From IMG/VR virus record IMGVR_UViG_3300005611_000068, positions 1-41,271 of that record: DNA of 41,271 bases, one strand, 5' to 3'. This document shows positions 9,129-36,827 of the stretch, one piece after another. This stretch comes from a virus. Its lineage: Duplodnaviria > Caudoviricetes. The notes under the pieces were generated by a model. It was not told where the DNA came from. It saw nothing but the letters and a program-made list of their open reading frames with translations, and made no database searches. Position 1 is the stretch's first letter, and each line of letters opens with the position of its first letter. The position numbers and the translations under genes were made by a program.

Positions 9129-9578
9129 TTAGTACTTGGTCAAAATTGCTTCCGGGTCGTCTACAACAGCCAATACCTCATCGTCATTTAGAAGACGAAT
9201 TTCGCCCCCGTCAATCGGAATACGCGCACCGGCATAACGACCAAAAACAACCCAATCACCATCCTTGCACCAAGGACCATTCGGATACTTATCCGGATCC
9301 TTATAGGCGTCAGGACCTGACTTCAAAACCAGACCAACTACCGTGGCTACCTGTTCACGCTCACGAGTTTGATCCGCAAGATAAATACCGCCTTTCGTGC
9401 GGTCAGAAACCTTGTACGGCAAAATCAACAAGCGATAACCGGTAGGGTTAGGAAGCTGTTCTAGATTCTTAGGTGCTTCTTGCTTACTTTCTTCTTTGCG
9501 AGCTTTCGACTCGGACTTATCACTATCGAAATTCAGAACAATGTCCGGAACCTCTTTCTTCTCAGCTACTGCTGTCAT
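9129..9578 (-). CDS. groES: Co-chaperonin GroES-like protein
   Basis: PTGYRLLI...TKGGIYL...GPDAY...GDWVVFGRYAG...RLLNDDEVLA. Confidence 0.85.
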   Translation of the reverse strand: MTAVAEKKEVPDIVLNFDSDKSESKARKEESKQEAPKNLEQLPNPTGYRLLILPYKVSDRTKGGIYLADQTREREQVATVVGLVLKSGPDAYKDPDKYPNGPWCKDGDWVVFGRYAGARIPIDGGEIRLLNDDEVLAVVDDPEAILTKY

Positions 9579-20117: not shown

Positions 20118-20325
20118 GTTGTTGCTCCATGTAGTCGTTTAATGCGTATAGCAGCCGATCATAAGTGCTACTCCAGTCTATATTTTCTAAGTACTCAACG
20201 GCATCTACCCATTGTTCGGGGGTCATATCCGCCGTGTCGAAAAGGTCGCGCTCCCACCACGCCACCACGAGGGCATCGTCGGGGTCATACTCTTTCAGCT
20301 CGTTCATCAGTTCGCGTACTTTCAT
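20107..20325 (-). CDS. Hypothetical acidic protein
   Basis: MKVRELxxELxxYDPD start; GGAGG RBS; ATGA overlap. Confidence 0.65.
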   Translation of the reverse strand: MKVRELMNELKEYDPDDALVVAWWERDLFDTADMTPEQWVDAVEYLENIDWSSTYDRLLYALNDYMEQQHAI

Positions 20326-20813
20326 GCTGCCTCCATAGGCTGTTGCCACCAGTGCGGTGTAATTGTGTATTCCCATCGTGCGAATCGGGCTTTCTCATGT
20401 CTGTAGTACGCACGGTACGCTTCGACGGTATCGGGGCGTTTGTACGCATCTGGCATGCACTGAGGTGGATCGGTAAATTTACCGTCAGCGATATTCGTAG
20501 GTGGCTTGATCAAATGGTCGGCTAACTTGAGATAGCTGAGATGATTCTTACCGTATCGCCAGTGGTACTCGGTCGATAGTGCGTGGAAAAGGTTAAAGGT
20601 CCATTGGTACTGCGCCGAGTTCGATCGTACCCAGACTGCGGATGGGTGGTAGGTGTGCGTTGCTTTGTAGAACACGTCCGGCACATCGGTGTCGAGGATG
20701 CGGTGTGCACTACACAGTAGCTGCGCGGTTTCAAGCACCATTTTGACAACATGCTTGTCGCAGTGGTCTTTAGCCGCGAGTACTGGGTCGTGGTTGAGGT
20801 AGAAAATATTCAC
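20322..20813 (-). CDS. Pyrimidine-dimer DNA glycosylase/endonuclease V-like protein
   Basis: MNIFYLxxDP...HCDKHVVKMxLExAQLL...HPSAVW...PQCMPD...AYRAYY. Confidence 0.75.
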   Translation of the reverse strand: MNIFYLNHDPVLAAKDHCDKHVVKMVLETAQLLCSAHRILDTDVPDVFYKATHTYHPSAVWVRSNSAQYQWTFNLFHALSTEYHWRYGKNHLSYLKLADHLIKPPTNIADGKFTDPPQCMPDAYKRPDTVEAYRAYYRHEKARFARWEYTITPHWWQQPMEAA

Positions 20814-23289: not shown

Positions 23290-23625
23290 TTAGCCAAGTT
23301 GAATATATCCGCCATCGATCAATGCTTGACGATAGAAGGTATAGATACGCTTCGGCTCTTGCTTGGTCTTGAGACCGTTCTTGATCAGGTTGTCGATCAC
23401 TTCCTGCTGCGTGGACTTACCGCCCAACGCATCTAAGGTTGCGAGGACTACACGGGCTTGTGCGGCCATCTTAACGCCGTCTTTCGGCTTGGATACCAAC
23501 TTAACCGGACGGGTATCGAACGCTCCGCCACGGGTTCCTGCGGTCTTAGGAGCCGGAACAGCGGCGGTCTTTTTAGCACGGGGTGCTGGGGTCTTCTTCA
23601 CAGAAGTTACGGTTGCAGTCTGCAT
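23290..23625 (-). CDS. wHTH-like protein with Lys/Ala/Pro-rich N-terminus, paralog C
   Basis: QARVVLATLDALGG...TKQEPKRIYTFYRQALIDGGYI; AAGGAG RBS. Confidence 0.75.
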   Translation of the reverse strand: MQTATVTSVKKTPAPRAKKTAAVPAPKTAGTRGGAFDTRPVKLVSKPKDGVKMAAQARVVLATLDALGGKSTQQEVIDNLIKNGLKTKQEPKRIYTFYRQALIDGGYIQLG

Positions 23626-26131: not shown

Positions 26132-26316
26132 TAGTCTAGGTATGTGTTTGCTTCGATGTACTCCTTCATAAACTGAAGGTTCGCGGTGCGTATCACCCAA
26201 TAACTAACTGAGCGTTGCGCGAGGCTGCGATCTTTTGCAGTGTTCAGGATCGTGTGTGCTTTAAGTAGTTCTGCTGTAACACCTTTATGAAGCTCTCTAA
26301 TAGTCTTCGACTTCAT
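26131..26316 (-). CDS. Hypothetical protein
   Basis: Coupled to polA stop (ATGA) and nuclease start (TAATG). Confidence 0.55.
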   Translation of the reverse strand: MKSKTIRELHKGVTAELLKAHTILNTAKDRSLAQRSVSYWVIRTANLQFMKEYIEANTYLD

Positions 26317-28187
26317 TTTGCTTCTCCCCAACTTGGACCTGTTTCAACATCCACAACGAGGGGTACAGACATCTCGACGCAGTGTTCCATGATGTGTTGT
26401 ATTTGCAACTCATCCTGTTTATTTGCTACCGAGAAGTCCAACTCATCATGCACCTGTAGGTGTGGAAGGAACCCTTCTTTCCAAAGAAGCTGCATCGCTT
26501 TCTTAGTCATGTCCGCTGCGGATCCTTGAATAAGTCGATTCATCGCTTTATAAGTGAACGCTCTGCGAATGGCTCCGACACACTCTAGCTTCGCTTCCTC
26601 TGCTGAGTTGTAAAACTTCCGACTGCCAAACTGTGAAGGTTCCCATTTATCGAAGCGACACTTGCGACCGAGTAGAGTACGAATCGCTCCAGCCTGTGCC
26701 GCCTTCCGACTACAGAAGGTACTTAGTCCGCGCATGAACGGGACCTTTGCGTGATACTCAGCAAAGAGTTGTCCTGCTTCCTCGACCGTTAGCTCAAGTT
26801 CATTCGCTAACTTCTTCTGGCCCATACCGTATGCAAGTCCGAGGTTGATGTTCTTTGCTTGCTTACGAGTAATCCCCGCCATATCTGCAACCATCTGATG
26901 GAAGTCAGTATTGGGATCTTTGTTATACGCCTCAACAACATCTGCTGCGCCTTGTAGATTCAAGCGATGAGCATAATGGGCCGTGATTCGTGGTTCCTGT
27001 GCGGAATAGTCGAACGCCCCCCAATAGCACCCTTCTTCTGGAATGAATAGGCTGCGGATCATCTTACCGATCTCAGGGTCACGAGCAGGCACTTGTTGTA
27101 GGTTAGGGTTGGAGTAACTAAACCGACCGCTCACCGTACCACCATCGTCCGAGCGTAGCGGATGAAGTTCCGCGTGTATTCGACCTTCGGTGTGATGCTC
27201 TAGGATCATCTTCTCGATGAACGTAGTGCGTGCTTTGTTTAACTTACGCGCCTCGACAATAAGTTGAGGTAACTCATGTTTGTGAGACTCTAACCATGAT
27301 GCTTGAAAGCTAGGTGCGCCAGTCTTTTCAGTGCGAGGGTACGGTAGCCCTGCATTATCAAAGATCTCAGCCAGTGATGCGTTCGCCCATATCTGAGGCT
27401 CGACACCGTAGTCCCGCTTAATCTTCATAAAGATTTCAAGTTCACGGGCTTTCAGTTTTTTGGAGTACTCTTCTGCTCGATCCAAATCGACACGCACCCC
27501 TCTGGCTCGCATTTCAACCAGCATCGGAGTCAGTGAAGACTCTAGCTCAAAGATCTGCCACAGGTCTTGTTTTTCTAAATGGATCTTCAGCGTATTCCAT
27601 AGCTTCAAGGTCAACGCTGCATCTTGCTCGGCGTATGTGCCTACGAAGTTTGCAGGTAGTCGCCACATCTCAGACTTCGGATTAAAGCCGAGTGCTTCAG
27701 CTGCTTGAATCAGTAGCTTCTCGTCCTTCTTCTCGCCGAGGTAATCTTTACCGAGCGCATTAAGTGCATACGACCAGCGGTCTTCGTTAATCAACGGAGC
27801 TGCAACCATCGTATCAATAATGTTGTCGGTAATATGAACATCGACTGTCCGTAGCCAGCCGACGTCATACATGGCGTTATGAAACAGCTTCTGTGCTCCG
27901 GGGTTTCCATCCATCTGGTTCTTAAACCACCGCAGGACTTGCTTGCGATCAAGATTACCACCGCCTTCGTGAGCGATCGGAAAGTAACCCGACCATCCCT
28001 CGACTGCGACTGCAATACCGACCACCTCGCCTTCTTTCCGCGCCCAGCCCGGTCCACGGACCGTGAGGCTTGGGTCACGAGTTTCTAAGTCGATGGCAAT
28101 AAGTTTTTCTTTAGATAGGTCTGGAAACGAGTCCGGTGCTATCCAATCGCTTTCTGGTAGTTCCACGTTCTTCTTAGCCTTTGGCAC
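26313..28187 (-). CDS. polA: Family A DNA polymerase with 3'-5' exonuclease, no 5'-3' exonuclease
   Basis: DLET, HNAMYD, YAEQDA exo motifs; SGRFS..PNLQQ, DYSAQEPR, KNINLGLAYG, IQGSAAD, VHDEL. Confidence 0.95.
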   Translation of the reverse strand: MPKAKKNVELPESDWIAPDSFPDLSKEKLIAIDLETRDPSLTVRGPGWARKEGEVVGIAVAVEGWSGYFPIAHEGGGNLDRKQVLRWFKNQMDGNPGAQKLFHNAMYDVGWLRTVDVHITDNIIDTMVAAPLINEDRWSYALNALGKDYLGEKKDEKLLIQAAEALGFNPKSEMWRLPANFVGTYAEQDAALTLKLWNTLKIHLEKQDLWQIFELESSLTPMLVEMRARGVRVDLDRAEEYSKKLKARELEIFMKIKRDYGVEPQIWANASLAEIFDNAGLPYPRTEKTGAPSFQASWLESHKHELPQLIVEARKLNKARTTFIEKMILEHHTEGRIHAELHPLRSDDGGTVSGRFSYSNPNLQQVPARDPEIGKMIRSLFIPEEGCYWGAFDYSAQEPRITAHYAHRLNLQGAADVVEAYNKDPNTDFHQMVADMAGITRKQAKNINLGLAYGMGQKKLANELELTVEEAGQLFAEYHAKVPFMRGLSTFCSRKAAQAGAIRTLLGRKCRFDKWEPSQFGSRKFYNSAEEAKLECVGAIRRAFTYKAMNRLIQGSAADMTKKAMQLLWKEGFLPHLQVHDELDFSVANKQDELQIQHIMEHCVEMSVPLVVDVETGPSWGEAK

Positions 28188-28467
28188 GAGTAATCTCTTC
28201 TTCGACTAGCAACAGATAACGACGTAGATCTTGAATGTCATCGAGGATGCCTTCAGCGCGTGTATCTTTCTTATAGGTCTCAAAGATGTCCCAGCCGTTT
28301 GGTTTAACTTGGTTTTCGATACGGTCCCACTTACGAGCCAGCATCATGAATGCGCCTACACCACCACGCTGCTTCCAGCTATCGCCATAGGATTGACCAG
28401 CCTTAACCAAGGCTTCTTGATCTTTCAGAGCGATCTGCTTTACCCGCTCATAGTTTGTTGTTGACAT
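28174..28467 (-). CDS. Nucleotide-modification-associated domain 1 (Nmad1/DUF1599-like) protein
   Basis: YGDSW..RG..G....LARKWDRI...DxxxDLxxY motif; GGAGG RBS. Confidence 0.65.
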   Translation of the reverse strand: MSTTNYERVKQIALKDQEALVKAGQSYGDSWKQRGGVGAFMMLARKWDRIENQVKPNGWDIFETYKKDTRAEGILDDIQDLRRYLLLVEEEITRAKG

Positions 28468-28624
28468 ACTTGTCCTCCAGTTCATATGTAATTTGTTTAG
28501 CGTGTTCCGCTATATCATCTAGCTCATAGCACTTCTTGCTTGGATCTTGTTGTAAAACTAGAACCTTCTTAGCCATGCAAAGTGCTACATCTAGGATCTC
28601 CTCAATGCTGTGATTTCTCGTCAT
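28448..28624 (-). CDS. Hypothetical protein (58 aa, not in ORF track)
   Basis: MTRNHSIEEILDVALCMAKK...YVNNKL; fills the gap between TS-like and Nmad1 genes. Confidence 0.45.
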   Translation of the reverse strand: MTRNHSIEEILDVALCMAKKVLVLQQDPSKKCYELDDIAEHAKQITYELEDKYVNNKL

Positions 28625-29588
28625 AGTTCTTCCTTCTTCTTTCTAACCACTGTACGCAAGCGATACGCCAATCCGGTGCTTTACAAAGTGCCATCGTTTC
28701 TAGCGCACCGTCGTAATCTCTAGCTTGGTGTAAACGATAAGATAATGCCATCGGAATCGCTACATCTGAGAAGAAGGTGTTCTCGAAGTTGAAGGCCCAG
28801 TTTTCATCCATGAACATGCTTAGTTCATAGAGCCATGTATCGGTGTCCTTTACCAATGGATAAGGAACGATGCTCTCATACTCGTAGGGGTTATGTAGAT
28901 CCTTCTGAATATGCATAACACGCTTGTATAGATCGTTGTCGTAGACGTGCAGGCTATCGCTAATCTGATTGTAGACACCAACGTCCACACCGATCATTGC
29001 AGCCATATATTCTTGTAGTACTGAGAAGTGAACTGCATTAGCACCATACGCACCCCAGATCATATCGTTGGAGCGATTACATACGGTCATGTTTAACTTA
29101 CCACGACGCACCTTGAAAAAGATGTGAGTATTACAAGGCTGATCTTTTGTATCGAGGTCTAGATCGTGACGCACGTCCCACATGCCGACCACACATCGGC
29201 GATCGTTCGGATCGTTACGCAACCGCTTTATGACAATAGCAAGCTGATTACGATCAAAGTGATGGATCCACCGATAACCATAAGCACCATTAAAAGTCTG
29301 TCCATCATCGGAAAACTGCTCCATGGTTTTGACGTAGTCCGTTAGATACTTAACATCGTTGCGGCCTGCAAGCATCCAAAGGCTTTCCATCAGATGAAAG
29401 AATGGGTTAGCGTCACGCTCTGGGTAGAATAAAACTCGCTCTGTTGGCTTGAAGTATGTTGTAGTAACTGGCTCTATGAATTCTATGGTATTACCGTTGC
29501 GGCTACGCTGGTAATCTCCTCTTCCTTTAATTGCATCTAGTCCGAGGAATAGTGCCTCTTGCACATTTCGTGCACGTATCGTGATCAT
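28602..29588 (-). CDS. Thymidylate synthase homolog, probable dUMP hydroxymethylase
   Basis: SRNG, RDANPFFH, GAYGYRW, DRR, PCN catalytic Cys, RSND..WG...N (Asn = dUMP-type), SLHVY. Confidence 0.85.
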   Translation of the reverse strand: MITIRARNVQEALFLGLDAIKGRGDYQRSRNGNTIEFIEPVTTTYFKPTERVLFYPERDANPFFHLMESLWMLAGRNDVKYLTDYVKTMEQFSDDGQTFNGAYGYRWIHHFDRNQLAIVIKRLRNDPNDRRCVVGMWDVRHDLDLDTKDQPCNTHIFFKVRRGKLNMTVCNRSNDMIWGAYGANAVHFSVLQEYMAAMIGVDVGVYNQISDSLHVYDNDLYKRVMHIQKDLHNPYEYESIVPYPLVKDTDTWLYELSMFMDENWAFNFENTFFSDVAIPMALSYRLHQARDYDGALETMALCKAPDWRIACVQWLERRRKNYDEKSQH

Positions 29589-29609
29589 AATTACTCCTTT
29601 GATTAAAGC

Positions 29610-29775
29610 GCCCCGTATCGTGGGGCTTACGGTCGGTTCCCAGTTACATGCTGTTTCGGAGGACTAGCCACCAAGGAGAACTGTGCCGACGGTGTGGGTT
29701 TTCAGGGATATGAAACCTACGGCACTCCACACCCACCGCCGCTACTGGTCAAAACGTACTAAAAACCCCAGTAGC
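29610..29775 (-). ncRNA. Candidate structured intergenic/leader RNA
   Basis: Complementary pairs 29741-48/29768-75, 29683-88/29720-25, 29691-97/29727-33, 29610-14/29622-26. Confidence 0.35.
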
Positions 29776-30617
29776 TATTGACAGCCATCATATTTACAAC
29801 GAGTACTGCCTTCACCATTTTCTATTCGCAGATATTTATCGAACTCACAACAGAGTCCTTCTGCGTCTCGCATTTCAAAAGGTCGTACATAGTCTGCACT
29901 GTGATCGTTGATAAACTTCATCAACTCTTGTAGCTCAGACTGCCAGTCATGTTTCTTACTGGTGTATTTCAAGTCTCTACCGTGAAGTCTATTTAGTCCA
30001 CGCATACATCCGGGTCCGGGATTCGCCCACGTCAGAATATCGTCTGCGTCTTCTAGCACATGGGTATGTCGTAGATCGGTAATTACTTCATACGCCATGA
30101 ACGGTCCCATGTATGGAAACTCTTTCAATATGTCCCAAGACTTTTGCAGATTTTTAATAGAAAGTATCGTCTTATACAGGTCTTTCCGCGCTGGCCACAT
30201 CTGATCAATCGCCCATCGGATACCGGTTAGCTTGTCGTAACCGTTCGGCGACTTGATTACATAGGCTGAAGTAATCCACTTTGGTTGTGGTCGGATCATA
30301 CGATCCGCTAACTCTGAATCCCAAAGGGTGTACAGCTTATGTCTCAATAGCGTTTCGCCTGTCTCGATAAGATTAAACCAGCGGAAGATCACAATAGCCA
30401 TTAGCACATCAGGATTGTTGCGCAAAGGTTCACGCACATTCTCTCGAAGCCAACGGGTATTGCGATCATCCTCACGGAAGACATTGCAAAACTTATGTGT
30501 CTGCAATATACGATCCGTGGTCCACGGTTTAGGACTCTGGTTTACCTCTTTCTCGATACGAATACGCTCTCGCTCATTAACCCAATACAGAGCCTTTTCA
30601 AGCTTATCTGAAAGCAT
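29775..30617 (-). CDS. aGPT-Pplase1 family / 5-hmdU DNA kinase (helical domain)
   Basis: ERERIR...PWTxDxIL..KFCNVFREDDR...FRWFN...GPFMAYEVITDL...GPGxxRGL...EGLCCEFDKY. Confidence 0.8.
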   Translation of the reverse strand: MLSDKLEKALYWVNERERIRIEKEVNQSPKPWTTDRILQTHKFCNVFREDDRNTRWLRENVREPLRNNPDVLMAIVIFRWFNLIETGETLLRHKLYTLWDSELADRMIRPQPKWITSAYVIKSPNGYDKLTGIRWAIDQMWPARKDLYKTILSIKNLQKSWDILKEFPYMGPFMAYEVITDLRHTHVLEDADDILTWANPGPGCMRGLNRLHGRDLKYTSKKHDWQSELQELMKFINDHSADYVRPFEMRDAEGLCCEFDKYLRIENGEGSTRCKYDGCQ

Positions 30618-31453
30618 TACTTCTTCCTAAGTACCCAGCCTGCGTTGTTCGAAACTTCTGGGTAAGGCATCGCAAGAATCATTCGCTGCCATTGCTTACC
30701 GAAGCGTTCCATGATCATGTCTACTTGGTCAGGGGACCATCGTCCATGCAGCTTTTGAGCCTTTTTGAAATTGGGCAGCTGTATAAAGTTTCCAACGACG
30801 GATTTGATCTCAAAGTACTTATCAAGCAAGTCTCGCAGCTCTTGGAATCCCCACTCGTAGACGTGGTCTTCTGGCAGTTTTTCATTACTACCGTCGTGGT
30901 TCGGTGTGGAGACGTAGGCAAGTCCACCGGGGCGAAGTACTCTGGCGGCTTCTGCGATCCATGGTTCGATGAACTCTCGACCCATGTGTTCGATAACTTC
31001 TGTCGTGTAGAAGAAATCAATATATTCGTCTTCGAGAGCCAGCTTTGGATTCGTCGTGAGGTCTTGAATGCGAACCTCGCCATTAATCGTCTTAAACCAT
31101 GCGCTGTCATGGATGTCTTCTCCACCGTTAGGCCAATACGGATGTTCCTGCTGGCAGGCTGGATCGATGTCATACCCAACATAATGTTGGACCACGTCCG
31201 CCTTCTTTACGGTGTAGGCTTTGTATAGCACACGCATCGGCCATACCTCGCCGCAACCGATCTCTAGGATACGGATCGGGCGACCAAGTGCCTTAGACTC
31301 TTCGATAGCCATTGTTACCATCTTGTCATAGCGACTCATGTGAGTCAGCTCATCTGGACGCCAGTTGCCAAGGACTCCGGCAGAGGCCAGATCCATGCGA
31401 GTATTTTTGGAATCGTTGATGTTTTCTTTCAGCTTTCTGCGAATAGATGCCAT
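30617..31453 (-). CDS. Class I SAM-dependent methyltransferase
   Basis: ILEIGCG, GYDID, TEVIEHM, LRPGG..STPN, HVYEW; TAATG-coupled to kinase gene. Confidence 0.85.
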   Translation of the reverse strand: MASIRRKLKENINDSKNTRMDLASAGVLGNWRPDELTHMSRYDKMVTMAIEESKALGRPIRILEIGCGEVWPMRVLYKAYTVKKADVVQHYVGYDIDPACQQEHPYWPNGGEDIHDSAWFKTINGEVRIQDLTTNPKLALEDEYIDFFYTTEVIEHMGREFIEPWIAEAARVLRPGGLAYVSTPNHDGSNEKLPEDHVYEWGFQELRDLLDKYFEIKSVVGNFIQLPNFKKAQKLHGRWSPDQVDMIMERFGKQWQRMILAMPYPEVSNNAGWVLRKK

Positions 31454-31472
31454 GCATCCTCCTGTTAAAGTG

Positions 31473-31492
31473 CGTGGGGCCGAAGCCCCACG
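31473..31492 (-). other. C(UUCG)G hairpin without long U-tract
   Basis: CGTGGGGC-TTCG-GCCCCACG directly after wHTH paralog D. Confidence 0.55.
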
Positions 31493-31502
31493 AGGGTTTC
31501 GA

Positions 31503-31769
31503 TTATTCCACTACGATCCAGCCCTTCTGGAGCAATTGACGGCGGTAAAATTTCCATACCTTGCGGGGGTGCTGCTTAGTTGACAGAACGCTTTGCAGCT
31601 TCTGAAACAGCTCACCAAGCGGCATCTTTCCACCGTTGTCGTCCAGAGTGAACAAAATGTCACGCATTTGCGGCGACACCTTATCACTTTGTTCTGGGAC
31701 CAGTTTGAGAACAATCATTGCATCATCCTTCAGACGCTTACCGTGAAGGGGGTGATGTTCTTTAGACAT
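31503..31769 (-). CDS. wHTH-like protein, paralog D
   Basis: PQMRDILFTLDDNGG...TKQHPRKVWKFYRRQLLQKGWI aligns with 23290-23625. Confidence 0.75.
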   Translation of the reverse strand: MSKEHHPLHGKRLKDDAMIVLKLVPEQSDKVSPQMRDILFTLDDNGGKMPLGELFQKLQSVLSTKQHPRKVWKFYRRQLLQKGWIVVE

Positions 31770-31799
31770 AAGAGTCTCCTTATCGAATTGTCAAGTAGG

Positions 31800-31858
31800 C
31801 TCTACTTTCTCTTACCTACCGCCCTATTATAGCCCCCAAGGGCAAGAACGTAAAGGCA
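31800..31858 (-). promoter_or_regulatory. Repeated promoter GCCTTTACG-17-TATAAT
   Basis: Heads the paralog D-MTase-kinase-TS operon; GAGAAAGTAGAG inside GTAGG/CCTAC hairpin. Confidence 0.75.
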
Positions 31859-31864
31859 AAAACT

Positions 31865-33373
31865 TTATAGCGGAAAGTATTTTTCCGTGGTTGGTTCGAT
31901 GAGATGCAGACTTTTCTTAGCCCGCGTCAATGCAACATACATAACTCTGGTCTCATCGTCCGGATTACGCTCAAAACTTTTGAAAGTCTTGCCGGAAAGA
32001 TCGGTCAGCACCATCACATGGTCTGCCTCCCCACCTTTTGCACCGTGAATGGTCGACAGTTTGATACGGGGCTTCTTGGTAATTTCCTCGCCTCTTCTAA
32101 GCATTGCGGCTAGATAGCTGCGCTCGGCTACGGTAAGCCCGTTGAGGCTGTCTTCCCAACTCCCCTCTACCTTTACGTCATAGTGCTGCTTAAGCTGGCG
32201 TAACGAGAGCCGTGTTTCAGGGTCCGCGTTCTCCAGATCTTTGACCTTGGTCCCCCGGATATAGGTTAAGCAATTCTTAACCTCTCCAACGCTTAGGGAC
32301 TCACCAGAGATTAACCGCTGCCACTCTTTGATCGCAAGAATCTTTTTCTCAGCGATACTGTTTCGACCCCGACGTTCAAAGAAGTAGCCCTCCTCACGAC
32401 AGAACGTATCCAGCTTATCCAAGTGGTAGTTCGATCTTGCAAGAAGCAGCCACGACCCATCGTGAAGGTCTACGTTTTCGTAATACGGATCGTGAATAAT
32501 CGCCCCTTCCTCCCGTTTCGCTTTCCACTCTTTAGGGACGCGATTGCTCACTCTTTTGATAACAGAGTCCGAAAGGTCGTGAATAGTCTTTGGAATACGG
32601 TAGGACTGGTCGAGGACAGTGGCTCGTCCACGTGAGAGATTAACAAAGTAGTCCACGTCTGCACCAGCCCAGCGAAAGATGGCCTGATCATCGTCCCCCG
32701 CGATATAAACCCGGTCAGAGTTTTGTGCAATCTTGTGTACCACCTGCCATTGCAGCGGACTTAGGTCCTGCGCCTCATCAATAAAAACCACATCAAATTT
32801 TGGGCACACCCCTTGTGCAACAAAGTCTACGAGCATGTCCGTAAAGTCACGAACCAACATACGATCTTTATAGTTGCGTAACGCCCGTGAGATGCGCTCA
32901 AGCTGAAACCAATCTACATTCCACTCGTTATTGTGGTCATGTTCATCGTAGATCTGACGTAAAGGAATCATTCGCATTCTTGCGAGGTTATCCATAACAA
33001 GTAACTGTTCGTCACGGCTCATGTTCCATGAACCTGCTTCCTCGGATGCAAGTGATCCTGTTAGACGAAGCCCAAGATCCTCACCAAATTCTTTGAAGTT
33101 TGCTGCGGACATAACCACTTCACGAGTTAGCCCCAACTCTTGAAAGCAAAACGAATGCAGTGTTCTAAAGTATGGAAGCTGTTTTGGAGCCAGCTCAAAC
33201 TTTTCCATCGCACGATCACGGCCTTCCGTCGCAGCTTTCTTAGTAAACGCGAAGTAACCAATACGTTCAGGATAAGTACCTGAGTCTAACTCCTTCTCGA
33301 TTAGGTGCATCAGAGTCGTCGTCTTTCCTGTACCCGGAGGTCCAAGGATGATGGACCATTTATCTGGTGTCAT
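31865..33373 (-). CDS. SF1 UvrD/Rep-like helicase
   Basis: GPPGTGKT, AFTKKAA, TLHS, IDEAQD, GDDDQAIF, SYR, STIHGAKGGEAD, YVALTRA. Confidence 0.92.
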   Translation of the reverse strand: MTPDKWSIILGPPGTGKTTTLMHLIEKELDSGTYPERIGYFAFTKKAATEGRDRAMEKFELAPKQLPYFRTLHSFCFQELGLTREVVMSAANFKEFGEDLGLRLTGSLASEEAGSWNMSRDEQLLVMDNLARMRMIPLRQIYDEHDHNNEWNVDWFQLERISRALRNYKDRMLVRDFTDMLVDFVAQGVCPKFDVVFIDEAQDLSPLQWQVVHKIAQNSDRVYIAGDDDQAIFRWAGADVDYFVNLSRGRATVLDQSYRIPKTIHDLSDSVIKRVSNRVPKEWKAKREEGAIIHDPYYENVDLHDGSWLLLARSNYHLDKLDTFCREEGYFFERRGRNSIAEKKILAIKEWQRLISGESLSVGEVKNCLTYIRGTKVKDLENADPETRLSLRQLKQHYDVKVEGSWEDSLNGLTVAERSYLAAMLRRGEEITKKPRIKLSTIHGAKGGEADHVMVLTDLSGKTFKSFERNPDDETRVMYVALTRAKKSLHLIEPTTEKYFPL

Positions 33374-36796: not shown

Positions 36797-36827
36797 ATTA
36801 TAACGACCAAAAGGGCGGAAGTAAAGC
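36797..36827 (-). promoter_or_regulatory. Promoter GCTTTACT-17-TATAAT
   Basis: Followed by hairpin CGGTTAGGG/CCCTACCG. Confidence 0.7.

What the first reader, a model, noticed from the sequence alone, without database searches (positions are those of the whole stretch)
28174..31858. Thymine-hypermodification cluster with a SAM methyltransferase where an amino-acid:DNA transferase is expected
Seen: one promoter (31826-31854) heads wHTH paralog D, a class I MTase, an aGPT-Pplase1 gene (TAATG-coupled to the MTase), a TS homolog with dUMP-type Asn, a 58-aa ORF, an Nmad1-like gene and then polA. Established: in M6/YuA, ViI and phiW-14, dUMP hydroxymethylase makes 5hmdU, an aGPT-Pplase1-family kinase phosphorylates it in DNA, and an aGPT-Pplase2 transferase displaces the phosphate with an amine or amino acid. 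I see no aGPT-Pplase2, radical SAM or PLP enzyme in this window. Inference: the coupled MTase may act on 5hmdU or its phosphate, giving an undescribed methylated base through a minimal pathway.
Basis: partly seen in the sequence, partly recalled or inferred. Interest (0 to 1): 0.82.

Follow-up and report, generated by a model that had tools for sequence, protein, structure and literature searches.

The report
Hen1-like methyltransferase in phage hydroxymethyluracil module
An uncultured aquatic phage group carries a three-enzyme module that likely puts hydroxymethyl-uracil into its DNA and, lacking the kinase and amino-acid transferase of studied pathways, likely caps it with a methyl group through a Hen1-like enzyme, which would give a DNA base (5-methoxymethyl-uracil) that my paper searches did not find described.

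Summary
The genes are as described, but the 'kinase' is misread. The aGPT-Pplase1 gene is the ortholog of M6 gp55/PaMx11 gp50, which is not needed for modification in vitro; the real kinase is a separate P-loop protein. Neither kinase nor amino-acid:DNA transferase occurs in the window (a 41-kb fragment) or in 17 near-complete relatives, so the 'methylated phosphate' branch fails.

The TS homolog has the dUMP-hydroxymethylase signature. T-free restriction palindromes are depleted (O/E 0.15), as in PaMx11 and unlike module-less relatives.

The methyltransferase belongs to a phage family whose best solved sequence matches are Hen1 O-methyltransferases, with Hen1's active-site residues. Across 32 sequence clusters it shares a genome with a TS homolog in 30; these are nearly all hydroxymethylase-type, mostly dCMP-specific, and usually lack Pplase1. 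Its sister clade sits beside kinase plus transferase, so it is no stand-in for the transferase.

Best reading (about 0.45): it O-methylates the 5-hydroxymethyl group. Pplase1 keeps the transferase's catalytic cysteine and is a candidate for the unexplained hmU-to-T conversion. No chemistry is shown. The scan reported this cassette before on other genomes (8 notes seen).

The parts
31826..31854 (-). sigma70-like promoter (TTTACG-17-TATAAT); similar motif repeated at 36797-36825
   Evidence: consensus match only
31503..31769 (-). 88-aa paralog of window 23290-23625; not a conserved part of the module
   Evidence: no Pfam or PHROG hit (5, 6, 20)
30617..31453 (-). Hen1-like class I SAM methyltransferase (R41, GCG 66-68, D95, E152-x-x-E155-H156, STPN 182-185, H197-x-x-E200-W); predicted O-methyltransferase of the 5-hydroxymethyl group
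29775..30617 (-). aGPT-Pplase1 (PF18723), ortholog of M6 gp55/PaMx11 gp50; not a kinase; HhH-type fold like AADT gp46, with the Cys (C257) that aligns to the catalytic Cys of gp46
28602..29588 (-). thymidylate-synthase homolog with dUMP hydroxymethylase signature (KDQPCN: Asp at ThyA 143; RSNDMIWGAYGAN: Asp169 and Asn177 kept); 46% identical to M6 gp58
28448..28624 (-). 58-aa ORF, not conserved
   Evidence: 0 of 80 loci
28174..28467 (-). Nmad1/DUF1599-like small helical protein (YGDSW), conserved in the module; possibly a nucleotide-pool enzyme (untested)
   Evidence: 76 of 80 loci (21); 49% to Pam3 gp54 (95); DUF1599 lead (138); start from RBS (139)
26313..28187 (-). family A DNA polymerase, downstream border; Leu at the 762-equivalent position (numbering recalled)
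31865..33373 (-). UvrD-like helicase, upstream border; lies directly next to polA in module-less relative DSL-LC04

Best explanation
The TS homolog likely makes 5-hydroxymethyl-dUMP, which host kinases and the phage polymerase would put into DNA in place of part of the thymine, and the Hen1-like methyltransferase likely moves a methyl group from SAM onto the hydroxymethyl oxygen to give 5-methoxymethyl-uracil, with no kinase and no amino-acid transferase in the module. Shown: gene set, absence of kinase and ADDT, active-site motifs, co-occurrence with hydroxymethylases, depletion of T-free restriction sites. Inferred: the hmdUMP product (strong), O-methylation (moderate), action on DNA rather than on the free nucleotide (weak), and Pplase1 working separately through its cysteine on left-over hmU, perhaps turning it into thymine (weak). 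The purpose would be to hide hmU from restriction and from hmU-reading nucleases or glycosylases.
For: (1) TS: Asp143 and Asn177 equivalents, the published signature of water addition to dUMP (PMC13326640 passages); Asp at 143 in 77 of 77 clade proteins; 46% identical to M6 gp58. (2) T-free 6-bp palindromes: O/E 0.15 (8/53) in the window, 0.10-0.46 in 5 whole relatives and 0.02 in T-modified PaMx11, against 0.92 and 2.05 in module-less DSL-LC04 and 023Pt and 0.99 in C-type AXL3; non-palindromic GC words are not depleted. (3) No ADDT in 0 of 26 relatives; no kinase by protein query (0 of 26), by PF18748 (0 of 17, with 4 of 4 controls positive) or by own profiles. (4) The family profile's top 4 of 98 PDB hits are Hen1 enzymes. 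E155, H156 and H197 are invariant in 53 of 53, E152 in 51 and R41 in 42, matching HEN1 E796/E799/H800/H860/R701 and TPN (PMC1397878 passages). (5) Of 96 divergent loci, 75 hold a TS homolog; 70 of 75 have Asp143 and none Leu, 72 of 75 have Asp177 and 2 have Asn177. At 55% identity, 26 of 32 clusters have TS in the locus and 4 more elsewhere in the genome. The shared feature of C-type and U-type partners is the 5-hydroxymethyl group. (6) Cultured AXL3 has the MTase beside a dCMP-type hydroxymethylase, and its DNA resists 35 of 37 restriction enzymes, all with G/C sites (PMC7504290 passages). (7) The MTase is fused to a C5 DNA methyltransferase domain in L147 and L167, and the clade has no dNMP kinase; both hint at action on DNA.
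Against: No biochemical or base-composition data. Structure alone does not single out Hen1: HEN1 ranks 32 (Z 14.5) against a top Z of 17.5. UbiG scores nearly as well by profile (E 1.3e-12 vs 1.8e-13) and hits more members in NCBIfam (50 vs 33 of 53). In most distant loci the MTase sits among nucleotide-pool genes (dNMP kinase, MazG, dCMP deaminase), which fits action on free nucleotides equally well. T-containing palindromes are also depleted (0.36-0.66), and GATC is absent from 2 of 5 relatives, so protection is partial at best; avoidance also depends on the unknown hosts. The clade lacks dCMP deaminase (0 of 10), so substitution may be low. The divergent loci came from patterns built on TS-linked members and are related, so the counts are not independent; no background rate was computed. 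Two clusters (fragments of 13% and 38% completeness) show no TS, and one large cluster has the MTase beside terminase rather than TS.
Confidence: 0.45

Rival explanations
1. The MTase and Pplase1 act in series: methylation makes the hydroxymethyl oxygen a leaving group in place of the phosphate (or the MTase methylates a Pplase1 adduct), and Pplase1 displaces it through its cysteine, giving thymine or a new adduct.
For: Adjacent in 79 of 81 loci and translationally coupled in the window. Pplase1 has the AADT fold (8z2m, Z 10.1, rmsd 4.0, 212 aligned) and keeps the Cys in 7 of 7 divergent proteins. All Asn177-linked MTases form one clade (99/97) whose loci carry Pplase1.
Against: Most family members have no Pplase1 within 8 kb (3 of 96 divergent loci do), and most Pplase1 phages have no such MTase (407 records vs 4-5). 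Methoxy is a poor leaving group (general chemistry). The metal-binding Thr of gp46 is Gly in this clade.
Confidence: 0.17
2. The enzyme keeps a Hen1-type job on RNA ends, or methylates a protein or another metabolite to support infection, and the DNA holds only hmU and T.
For: Hen1 enzymes are the best sequence matches. A 10-member cluster lies beside terminase, away from TS. T-containing restriction sites are still partly avoided.
Against: 278 aa, with no room for the N-terminal part of the longer bacterial Hen1. No P-loop kinase of a Pnkp partner in 5 whole genomes. The R858 equivalent is absent. The link to hydroxymethylases in 30 of 32 clusters is left unexplained.
Confidence: 0.18
3. The enzyme acts on the hydroxymethyl pyrimidine but transfers something other than methyl from SAM or a SAM derivative (carboxymethyl or aminocarboxypropyl), or methylates another atom of the base.
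For: Class I folds do such transfers (recalled). A phage carboxymethyltransferase of cytosine is known (PMC12783734, search listing only). CmoA appears among the fold matches (rank 37, Z 14.3).
Against: The motifs are those of Hen1/UbiG-type O-methyltransferases. No carboxy-SAM synthase was annotated among the 53 window ORFs.
Confidence: 0.14
4. One reading: Pplase1 phosphorylates hmU and the MTase methylates the phosphate.
For: Only the Pfam name of PF18723.
Against: The protein is the ortholog of non-kinase gp55/gp50, has no Walker A motif and an all-helical glycosylase-like fold. The published kinase activity lies in the P-loop proteins, including the kinase domain of SP10 gp186 alone.
Confidence: 0.03

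Closest known systems
Thymidine hypermodification clusters of Pseudomonas phages M6 and PaMx11 (Lee et al. 2018 PMC5889632; 2021 PMC8989533)
   Same: Orthologous dUMP hydroxymethylase (46%) and Pplase1 (33-42%), upstream of polA; depletion of T-free palindromes.
   Different: No P-loop 5-HMUDK, ADDT, radical SAM, PLP or HD-nucleotidase match and no dCMP deaminase; a Hen1-like MTase is present instead.
Hen1 small-RNA 2'-O-methyltransferases (HENMT1 4xcx, CtHen1 3jwg, AtHEN1 3htx)
   Same: Class I fold; R of motif X, EhhEH, TPN and the downstream His with ExW/Y conserved.
   Different: Stand-alone catalytic domain; the R858 equivalent is missing; no Pnkp-type partner seen; context is pyrimidine hydroxymethylases. 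Substrate untested.
Stenotrophomonas phage AXL3 and Pseudoxanthomonas phage PW916 nucleotide clusters
   Same: Same MTase family (28-30% identity) beside a TS homolog with Asp143; AXL3 DNA is restriction-resistant.
   Different: Their TS is dCMP-type (Asp177); they have a dNMP kinase, MazG and dCMP deaminase and no Pplase1 in the stretch seen. The base is not identified in the passages read.
Alphaproteobacterial phage phiJL001
   Same: Pplase1 (47.5%) plus dUMP hydroxymethylase without kinase or ADDT.
   Different: Carries a TAGT glycosyltransferase in the cluster and no MTase of this family.
One-step capping of 5hmC by a phage carbamoyltransferase or T4 glucosyltransferases (PMC8670742, passages)
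   Same: Same logic: a TS-family hydroxymethylase plus one transferase acting on the hydroxyl, with no kinase.
   Different: Different enzyme and group; cytosine rather than uracil.

Membership tests
[quoted passage not shown] | P-loop kinase domain homologous to M6 gp54/PaMx11 gp49 (PF18748) | tested here: not met
   No hit in the window or relatives; controls positive
Kinase/AADT thymidine hypermodification pathway | dUMP hydroxymethylase | tested here: met
   Sequence signature and 46% identity to M6 gp58; activity not assayed
Kinase/AADT thymidine hypermodification pathway | clade 2 aGPT-Pplase (PF18724) | tested here: not met
   0 of 26 relatives, 0 of 17 at >=90% completeness; PaMx11 control hit. 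The window itself lacks about a third of the genome.
Kinase/AADT thymidine hypermodification pathway | hypermodified T in virion DNA | not testable with these tools
   Only indirect palindrome depletion
aGPT-Pplase1 (PF18723) | Pfam match above cut-off, full length | tested here: met
   159 bits vs cut-off 25
aGPT-Pplase1 (PF18723) | HhH-glycosylase-like fold with E-x-x-x-C motif shared with AADT | tested here: met
   8z2m Z 10.1, rmsd 4.0, 212 aligned, tied within 1 Z with 7ugk, 3n0u and 7u07; motif alignment at low identity
Hen1 family | Active-site residues E796/E799/H800/H860, R701, TPN | tested here: met
   E152/E155/H156/H197, R41, STPN; their metal-binding role is recalled, not read
Hen1 family | Match to TIGR04074 at family level and full bacterial Hen1 length | tested here: not met
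   Window protein has no TIGR04074 hit at E<=0.01; best member E 8.5e-8, 33 of 53 weak hits; 278 aa
Hen1 family | 2'-O-methylation of RNA 3' ends | not testable with these tools
   needs an assay
dUMP hydroxymethylase (TS superfamily) | Cys146, Asp169 and Asn177 kept; acidic residue at 143 | tested here: met
   KDQPCN, RSNDMIWGAYGAN
Nmad1 (DUF1599, PF07659) | Pfam match | tested here: inconclusive
   No hit at E<=1; look-alike clusters carry it on 11-25% of members

The most novel reading that the evidence does not exclude
A phage-wide Hen1 offshoot methylates the 5-hydroxymethyl oxygen of both uracil and cytosine in DNA, making 5-methoxymethyl-dU and -dC natural DNA letters, while Pplase1 is the long-sought enzyme that turns left-over hmU in DNA into thymine without a kinase.
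Probability: 0.2. Interest if true: 0.88.

Novelty: new variant of a known kind. Interest (0 to 1): 0.66.

Why it matters
It predicts a new DNA base made in one step by an enzyme family known for RNA ends, in a widespread group of aquatic phages. The prediction can be tested now with cultured phages AXL3 or PW916. The module also separates Pplase1 from kinase and transferase. Lee et al. state that how hmU becomes T in phage DNA is unknown (PMC5889632 passage) and that Pplase genes were restricted to hypermodifying phages in their set (absent from SPO1), so this minimal cassette is a clean system for that open question. An enzyme that O-alkylates 5hmC/5hmU from SAM analogues could be useful for labelling in epigenetic sequencing.

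Tried and rejected
Pplase1 as kinase: rejected. Kinase or ADDT elsewhere in the genome: not found in relatives; the window's own record is only the 41-kb fragment. TET/JBP as a source of hm-pyrimidine in TS-less loci: 0 of 21, but no positive control rang, so uninformative. A structured RNA in the 186-nt gap between Pplase1 and TS: z = -0.06, no Rfam match at E<=1. Sequence search of Pplase1 against the PDB: nothing. Nmad compared with a DUF1599 hit in L201: no alignment. Scans with P0309 (viral, 84), P0242 (viral, 91) and P0247 (metagenome, 101) gave no loci; the genome scan gave one weak bacterial hit that I did not use. L109 was dropped before counting as a sugar-cluster MTase (E 1e-7). The one RNA run covers 9 of 30 bins and shows no transcription. 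No MTase-Pplase1 complex model was obtained, so binding is untested. Iyer et al. 2013, which defined these families, is not held and was not seen.
Full report
Setting. The window is a 41,271-base fragment of a tailed phage. Its closest relatives in IMG/VR are about 58-65 kb when complete. Cultured phages with a similar helicase are 023Pt_psg01 (40%), DSL-LC04 (39%, gammaproteobacterial host) and pelagiphages HTVC027P and HTVC023P (31%, 28%); the host of this clade is unknown. Contigs 90-99% alike cover 26-30 of 30 bins of the region in a freshwater, a marine-sediment and a marine-plankton run. In DSL-LC04 the helicase abuts polA, in 023Pt two small ORFs lie between them, and neither has a TS gene. 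The module is therefore a cassette in that slot.

Observation. All ORFs, the TAATG junction and the promoter-like site are present. Of 98 viral stretches encoding a relative of the MTase, 80 were kept. Pplase1 matched in 80, TS in 78, the Nmad-like gene in 76 and the 58-aa ORF in 0. The conserved order is helicase, (denV-like gene), MTase, Pplase1, (73-aa ORF), TS, Nmad-like, polA. These loci are one clade (57-66% MTase identity), so conservation shows selection, not independent origin.

The kinase is a misreading. PF18723 is now named '5-hmdU DNA kinase, helical domain'. In Lee et al. 2021 (PMC8989533; sections 15, 16, 21, 23 and passages read) the kinases are P-loop proteins (M6 gp54, PaMx11 gp49), the kinase domain of SP10 gp186 works alone, and reactions without M6 gp55 still give the glycine adduct. 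The window gene matches M6 gp55 (33%, E 3e-44) and PaMx11 gp50 (42%); gp54, gp51, gp52, gp53, gp56 and gp59 match neither the window nor 5 whole relatives. ADDT was found in 0 of 26 relatives (17 at >=90% completeness), the gp49 query in 0 of 26 and PF18748 in 0 of 17, with positive controls ringing. A Walker A scan of 5 whole genomes and the window gave only the helicase as a convincing P-loop; I judged the other pattern matches spurious by context. Both enzymes of the known route are missing.

The TS homolog. It keeps Cys146, Asp169 and Asn177 and has Asp at position 143; PMC13326640 (section 28 and passages) links an acidic 143 to hydroxymethylation and Asn177 to dUMP. The genome bears a matching mark. 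T-free 6-bp palindromes are at O/E 0.15 (8 of 53 expected) in the window and 0.10, 0.13, 0.10, 0.46 and 0.10 in five relatives, against 0.02 in PaMx11, 0.56 in phiJL001, 0.92 and 2.05 in the module-less relatives and 0.99 in AXL3. Against this, palindromes with one or two T are also depleted (0.36-0.66), GATC is missing in 2 of 5 relatives and CCWGG in the window. The clade also has no dCMP deaminase (0 of 10) and no dNMP kinase. Partial substitution or partial protection is likely, and host restriction systems confound the comparison.

The methyltransferase. The model (pLDDT 82.9) is a class I Rossmann fold; fold searches rank small-molecule MTases first and HEN1 at 32. A 53-sequence family alignment from the representative search leaves E155, H156, H197 and G221 invariant. 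Its profile ranks four Hen1 chains first among 98 PDB sequences, with UbiG close behind. The alignments pair RY, EVIEH, STPN and HxxEW with the same words in HENMT1 and CtHen1. PMC1397878 (passages) names R701, E796, E799, H800, R858/H860 and TPN as the HEN1 active site and says the first Glu is rare in small-molecule MTases. That these residues hold a metal that activates a hydroxyl is recalled. The protein fails Hen1 family membership but likely works like Hen1 on a hydroxyl.

What it travels with. Only 4-5 of 50,697 cultured or deposited phage records encode it. AXL3, PW916 and two Manatee Spring genomes have it beside MazG, a dNMP kinase, a TS homolog and a dCMP deaminase. I examined 97 divergent loci and dropped L109. 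Of the 96 left (some from the same contig), 75 have a TS homolog within about 8 kb. Position 143 is Asp in 70, unparsed or other in 5 and Leu in none; position 177 is Asp in 72, Asn in 2 and unparsed in 1. After clustering at 55% identity with the window clade, 26 of 32 clusters have TS in the locus. Four more have it elsewhere in the genome (7 of 18 records searched; 6 of 7 motifs parsed, all Asp143/Asp177), and the remaining two are 13% and 38% fragments. The family thus follows hydroxymethylases of either base. In the tree (39 rows) the window clade is sister to L106 and L107 (99/97), which carry Pplase1, an Asn177 TS, ADDT and kinase. The MTase therefore coexists with the full route and survives without it. 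Two loci fuse it to a C5 DNA methyltransferase domain. Sampling was biased towards TS-linked members and no background rate was computed.

Pplase1. The model (pLDDT 91.2) is closest to AADT gp46 (Foldseek E 0.0098; Z 10.1, rmsd 4.0, 212 aligned, tied with three glycosylase-like folds). E253 and C257 align with gp46 E243 and C247; the Cys is kept in 79 of 79 clade proteins and 7 of 7 divergent ones. PMC11472151 and PMC13458397 (passages) describe a catalytic Cys and a Glu-Thr metal site in Pplase2; the Thr is Gly here. Pplase1 occurs without kinase or ADDT here, in phiJL001 and within locus L118. M6, ViI, phiW-14 and SP10 virions contain no hmU and turn it into T or the hypermodified base, by a route stated as unknown in 2018. 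I therefore infer, weakly, that Pplase1 handles left-over hmU.

Mechanism. Step 1, dUMP to hmdUMP: inferred, strong. Step 2, host phosphorylation and incorporation by polA: inferred; host kinases are proposed for phage 15599. Step 3, O-methylation to 5-methoxymethyl-uracil: inferred, about 0.45. Step 4, Pplase1 clean-up: speculative.

Novelty. Searches listed no paper on this MTase family, on a methoxymethyl base in phage DNA (0 occurrences in the 20 of 47 and 20 of 40 papers listed) or on a function of Pplase1. PMC13229309 (passages) mentions O-methyltransferases near T-dioxygenases without testing them. Iyer et al. 2013 and all supplements were not seen and may mention this neighbourhood. 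Other papers seen: PMC7504290, PMC8670742, PMC7824862, PMC9071492 and bioRxiv 2024.12.05.627091 as passages; PMC12783734 as a listing. Eight earlier scan notes describe the same cassette on other genomes. My kinase correction and Hen1 reading came before I saw them, and they are not independent evidence. Verdict: a real cassette, a new variant of phage pyrimidine hypermodification, with its chemistry unproven.

Noticed in passing
L121:6480-10154 (G047, complete, terminal repeats): ADDT, 5-HMUDK and the MTase sit beside a dCMP-type (Asp177, Asp143) hydroxymethylase: possibly a cytosine version of kinase/amino-acid hypermodification.
   Followed up: partly
L106:4654-9882 and L107:1715-8735: Full kinase/ADDT clusters with the MTase and a dual-specificity phosphatase; L107 adds a GFO oxidoreductase and a DegT aminotransferase, hinting at an amino-sugar donor.
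   Followed up: partly
L147:6804-8723, L167:6165-8696; adjacent gene L148:9286-10635: C5 DNA methyltransferase-like domain fused to or near the Hen1-like MTase; in L147 and L167 a dCMP-type hydroxymethylase is nearby.
   Followed up: partly
L111:4222-5130; L178:8711-9346: dNMP kinase with a weak uracil-DNA glycosylase domain, and a free UDG next to the MTase.
   Followed up: no
L084:6821-7411 and L084:8985-9467: Relatives carry an AlkB-like 2OG-Fe(II) oxygenase before the helicase (cluster in 54 loci) and a denV-like glycosylase (47 loci), often between helicase and MTase; the window has its denV-like gene at 20322-20813 and no AlkB-like ORF.
   Followed up: no
window 36797-36825 and 31826-31854: Two similar promoter-like motifs (TTTAC..GCCCTT..TATAAT) head the replication operon and the module.
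   Followed up: partly
whole window; G009, G013: CCWGG is nearly absent from the window (O/E 0.08); CCGG, GGCC, GCGC and GATC are absent or nearly so from two relatives, a possible clue to host restriction systems.
   Followed up: no
L149, L157, L162, L172: A subgroup has the MTase one or two genes upstream of a gene of the terminase large-subunit type (Pfam-checked in L149), far from any TS gene.
   Followed up: partly
L086:13202-14938 (G009): A relative encodes a CHASE2-adenylate/guanylate cyclase protein.
   Followed up: no
window 9129-9578: GroES-like co-chaperonin gene in the head module.
   Followed up: no
L083:12846-14167 (phiJL001): Pplase1 followed by a weak SAM-lyase-like ORF and a TAGT glycosyltransferase, without kinase or ADDT: likely a glycosylated hmU.
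   Followed up: partly
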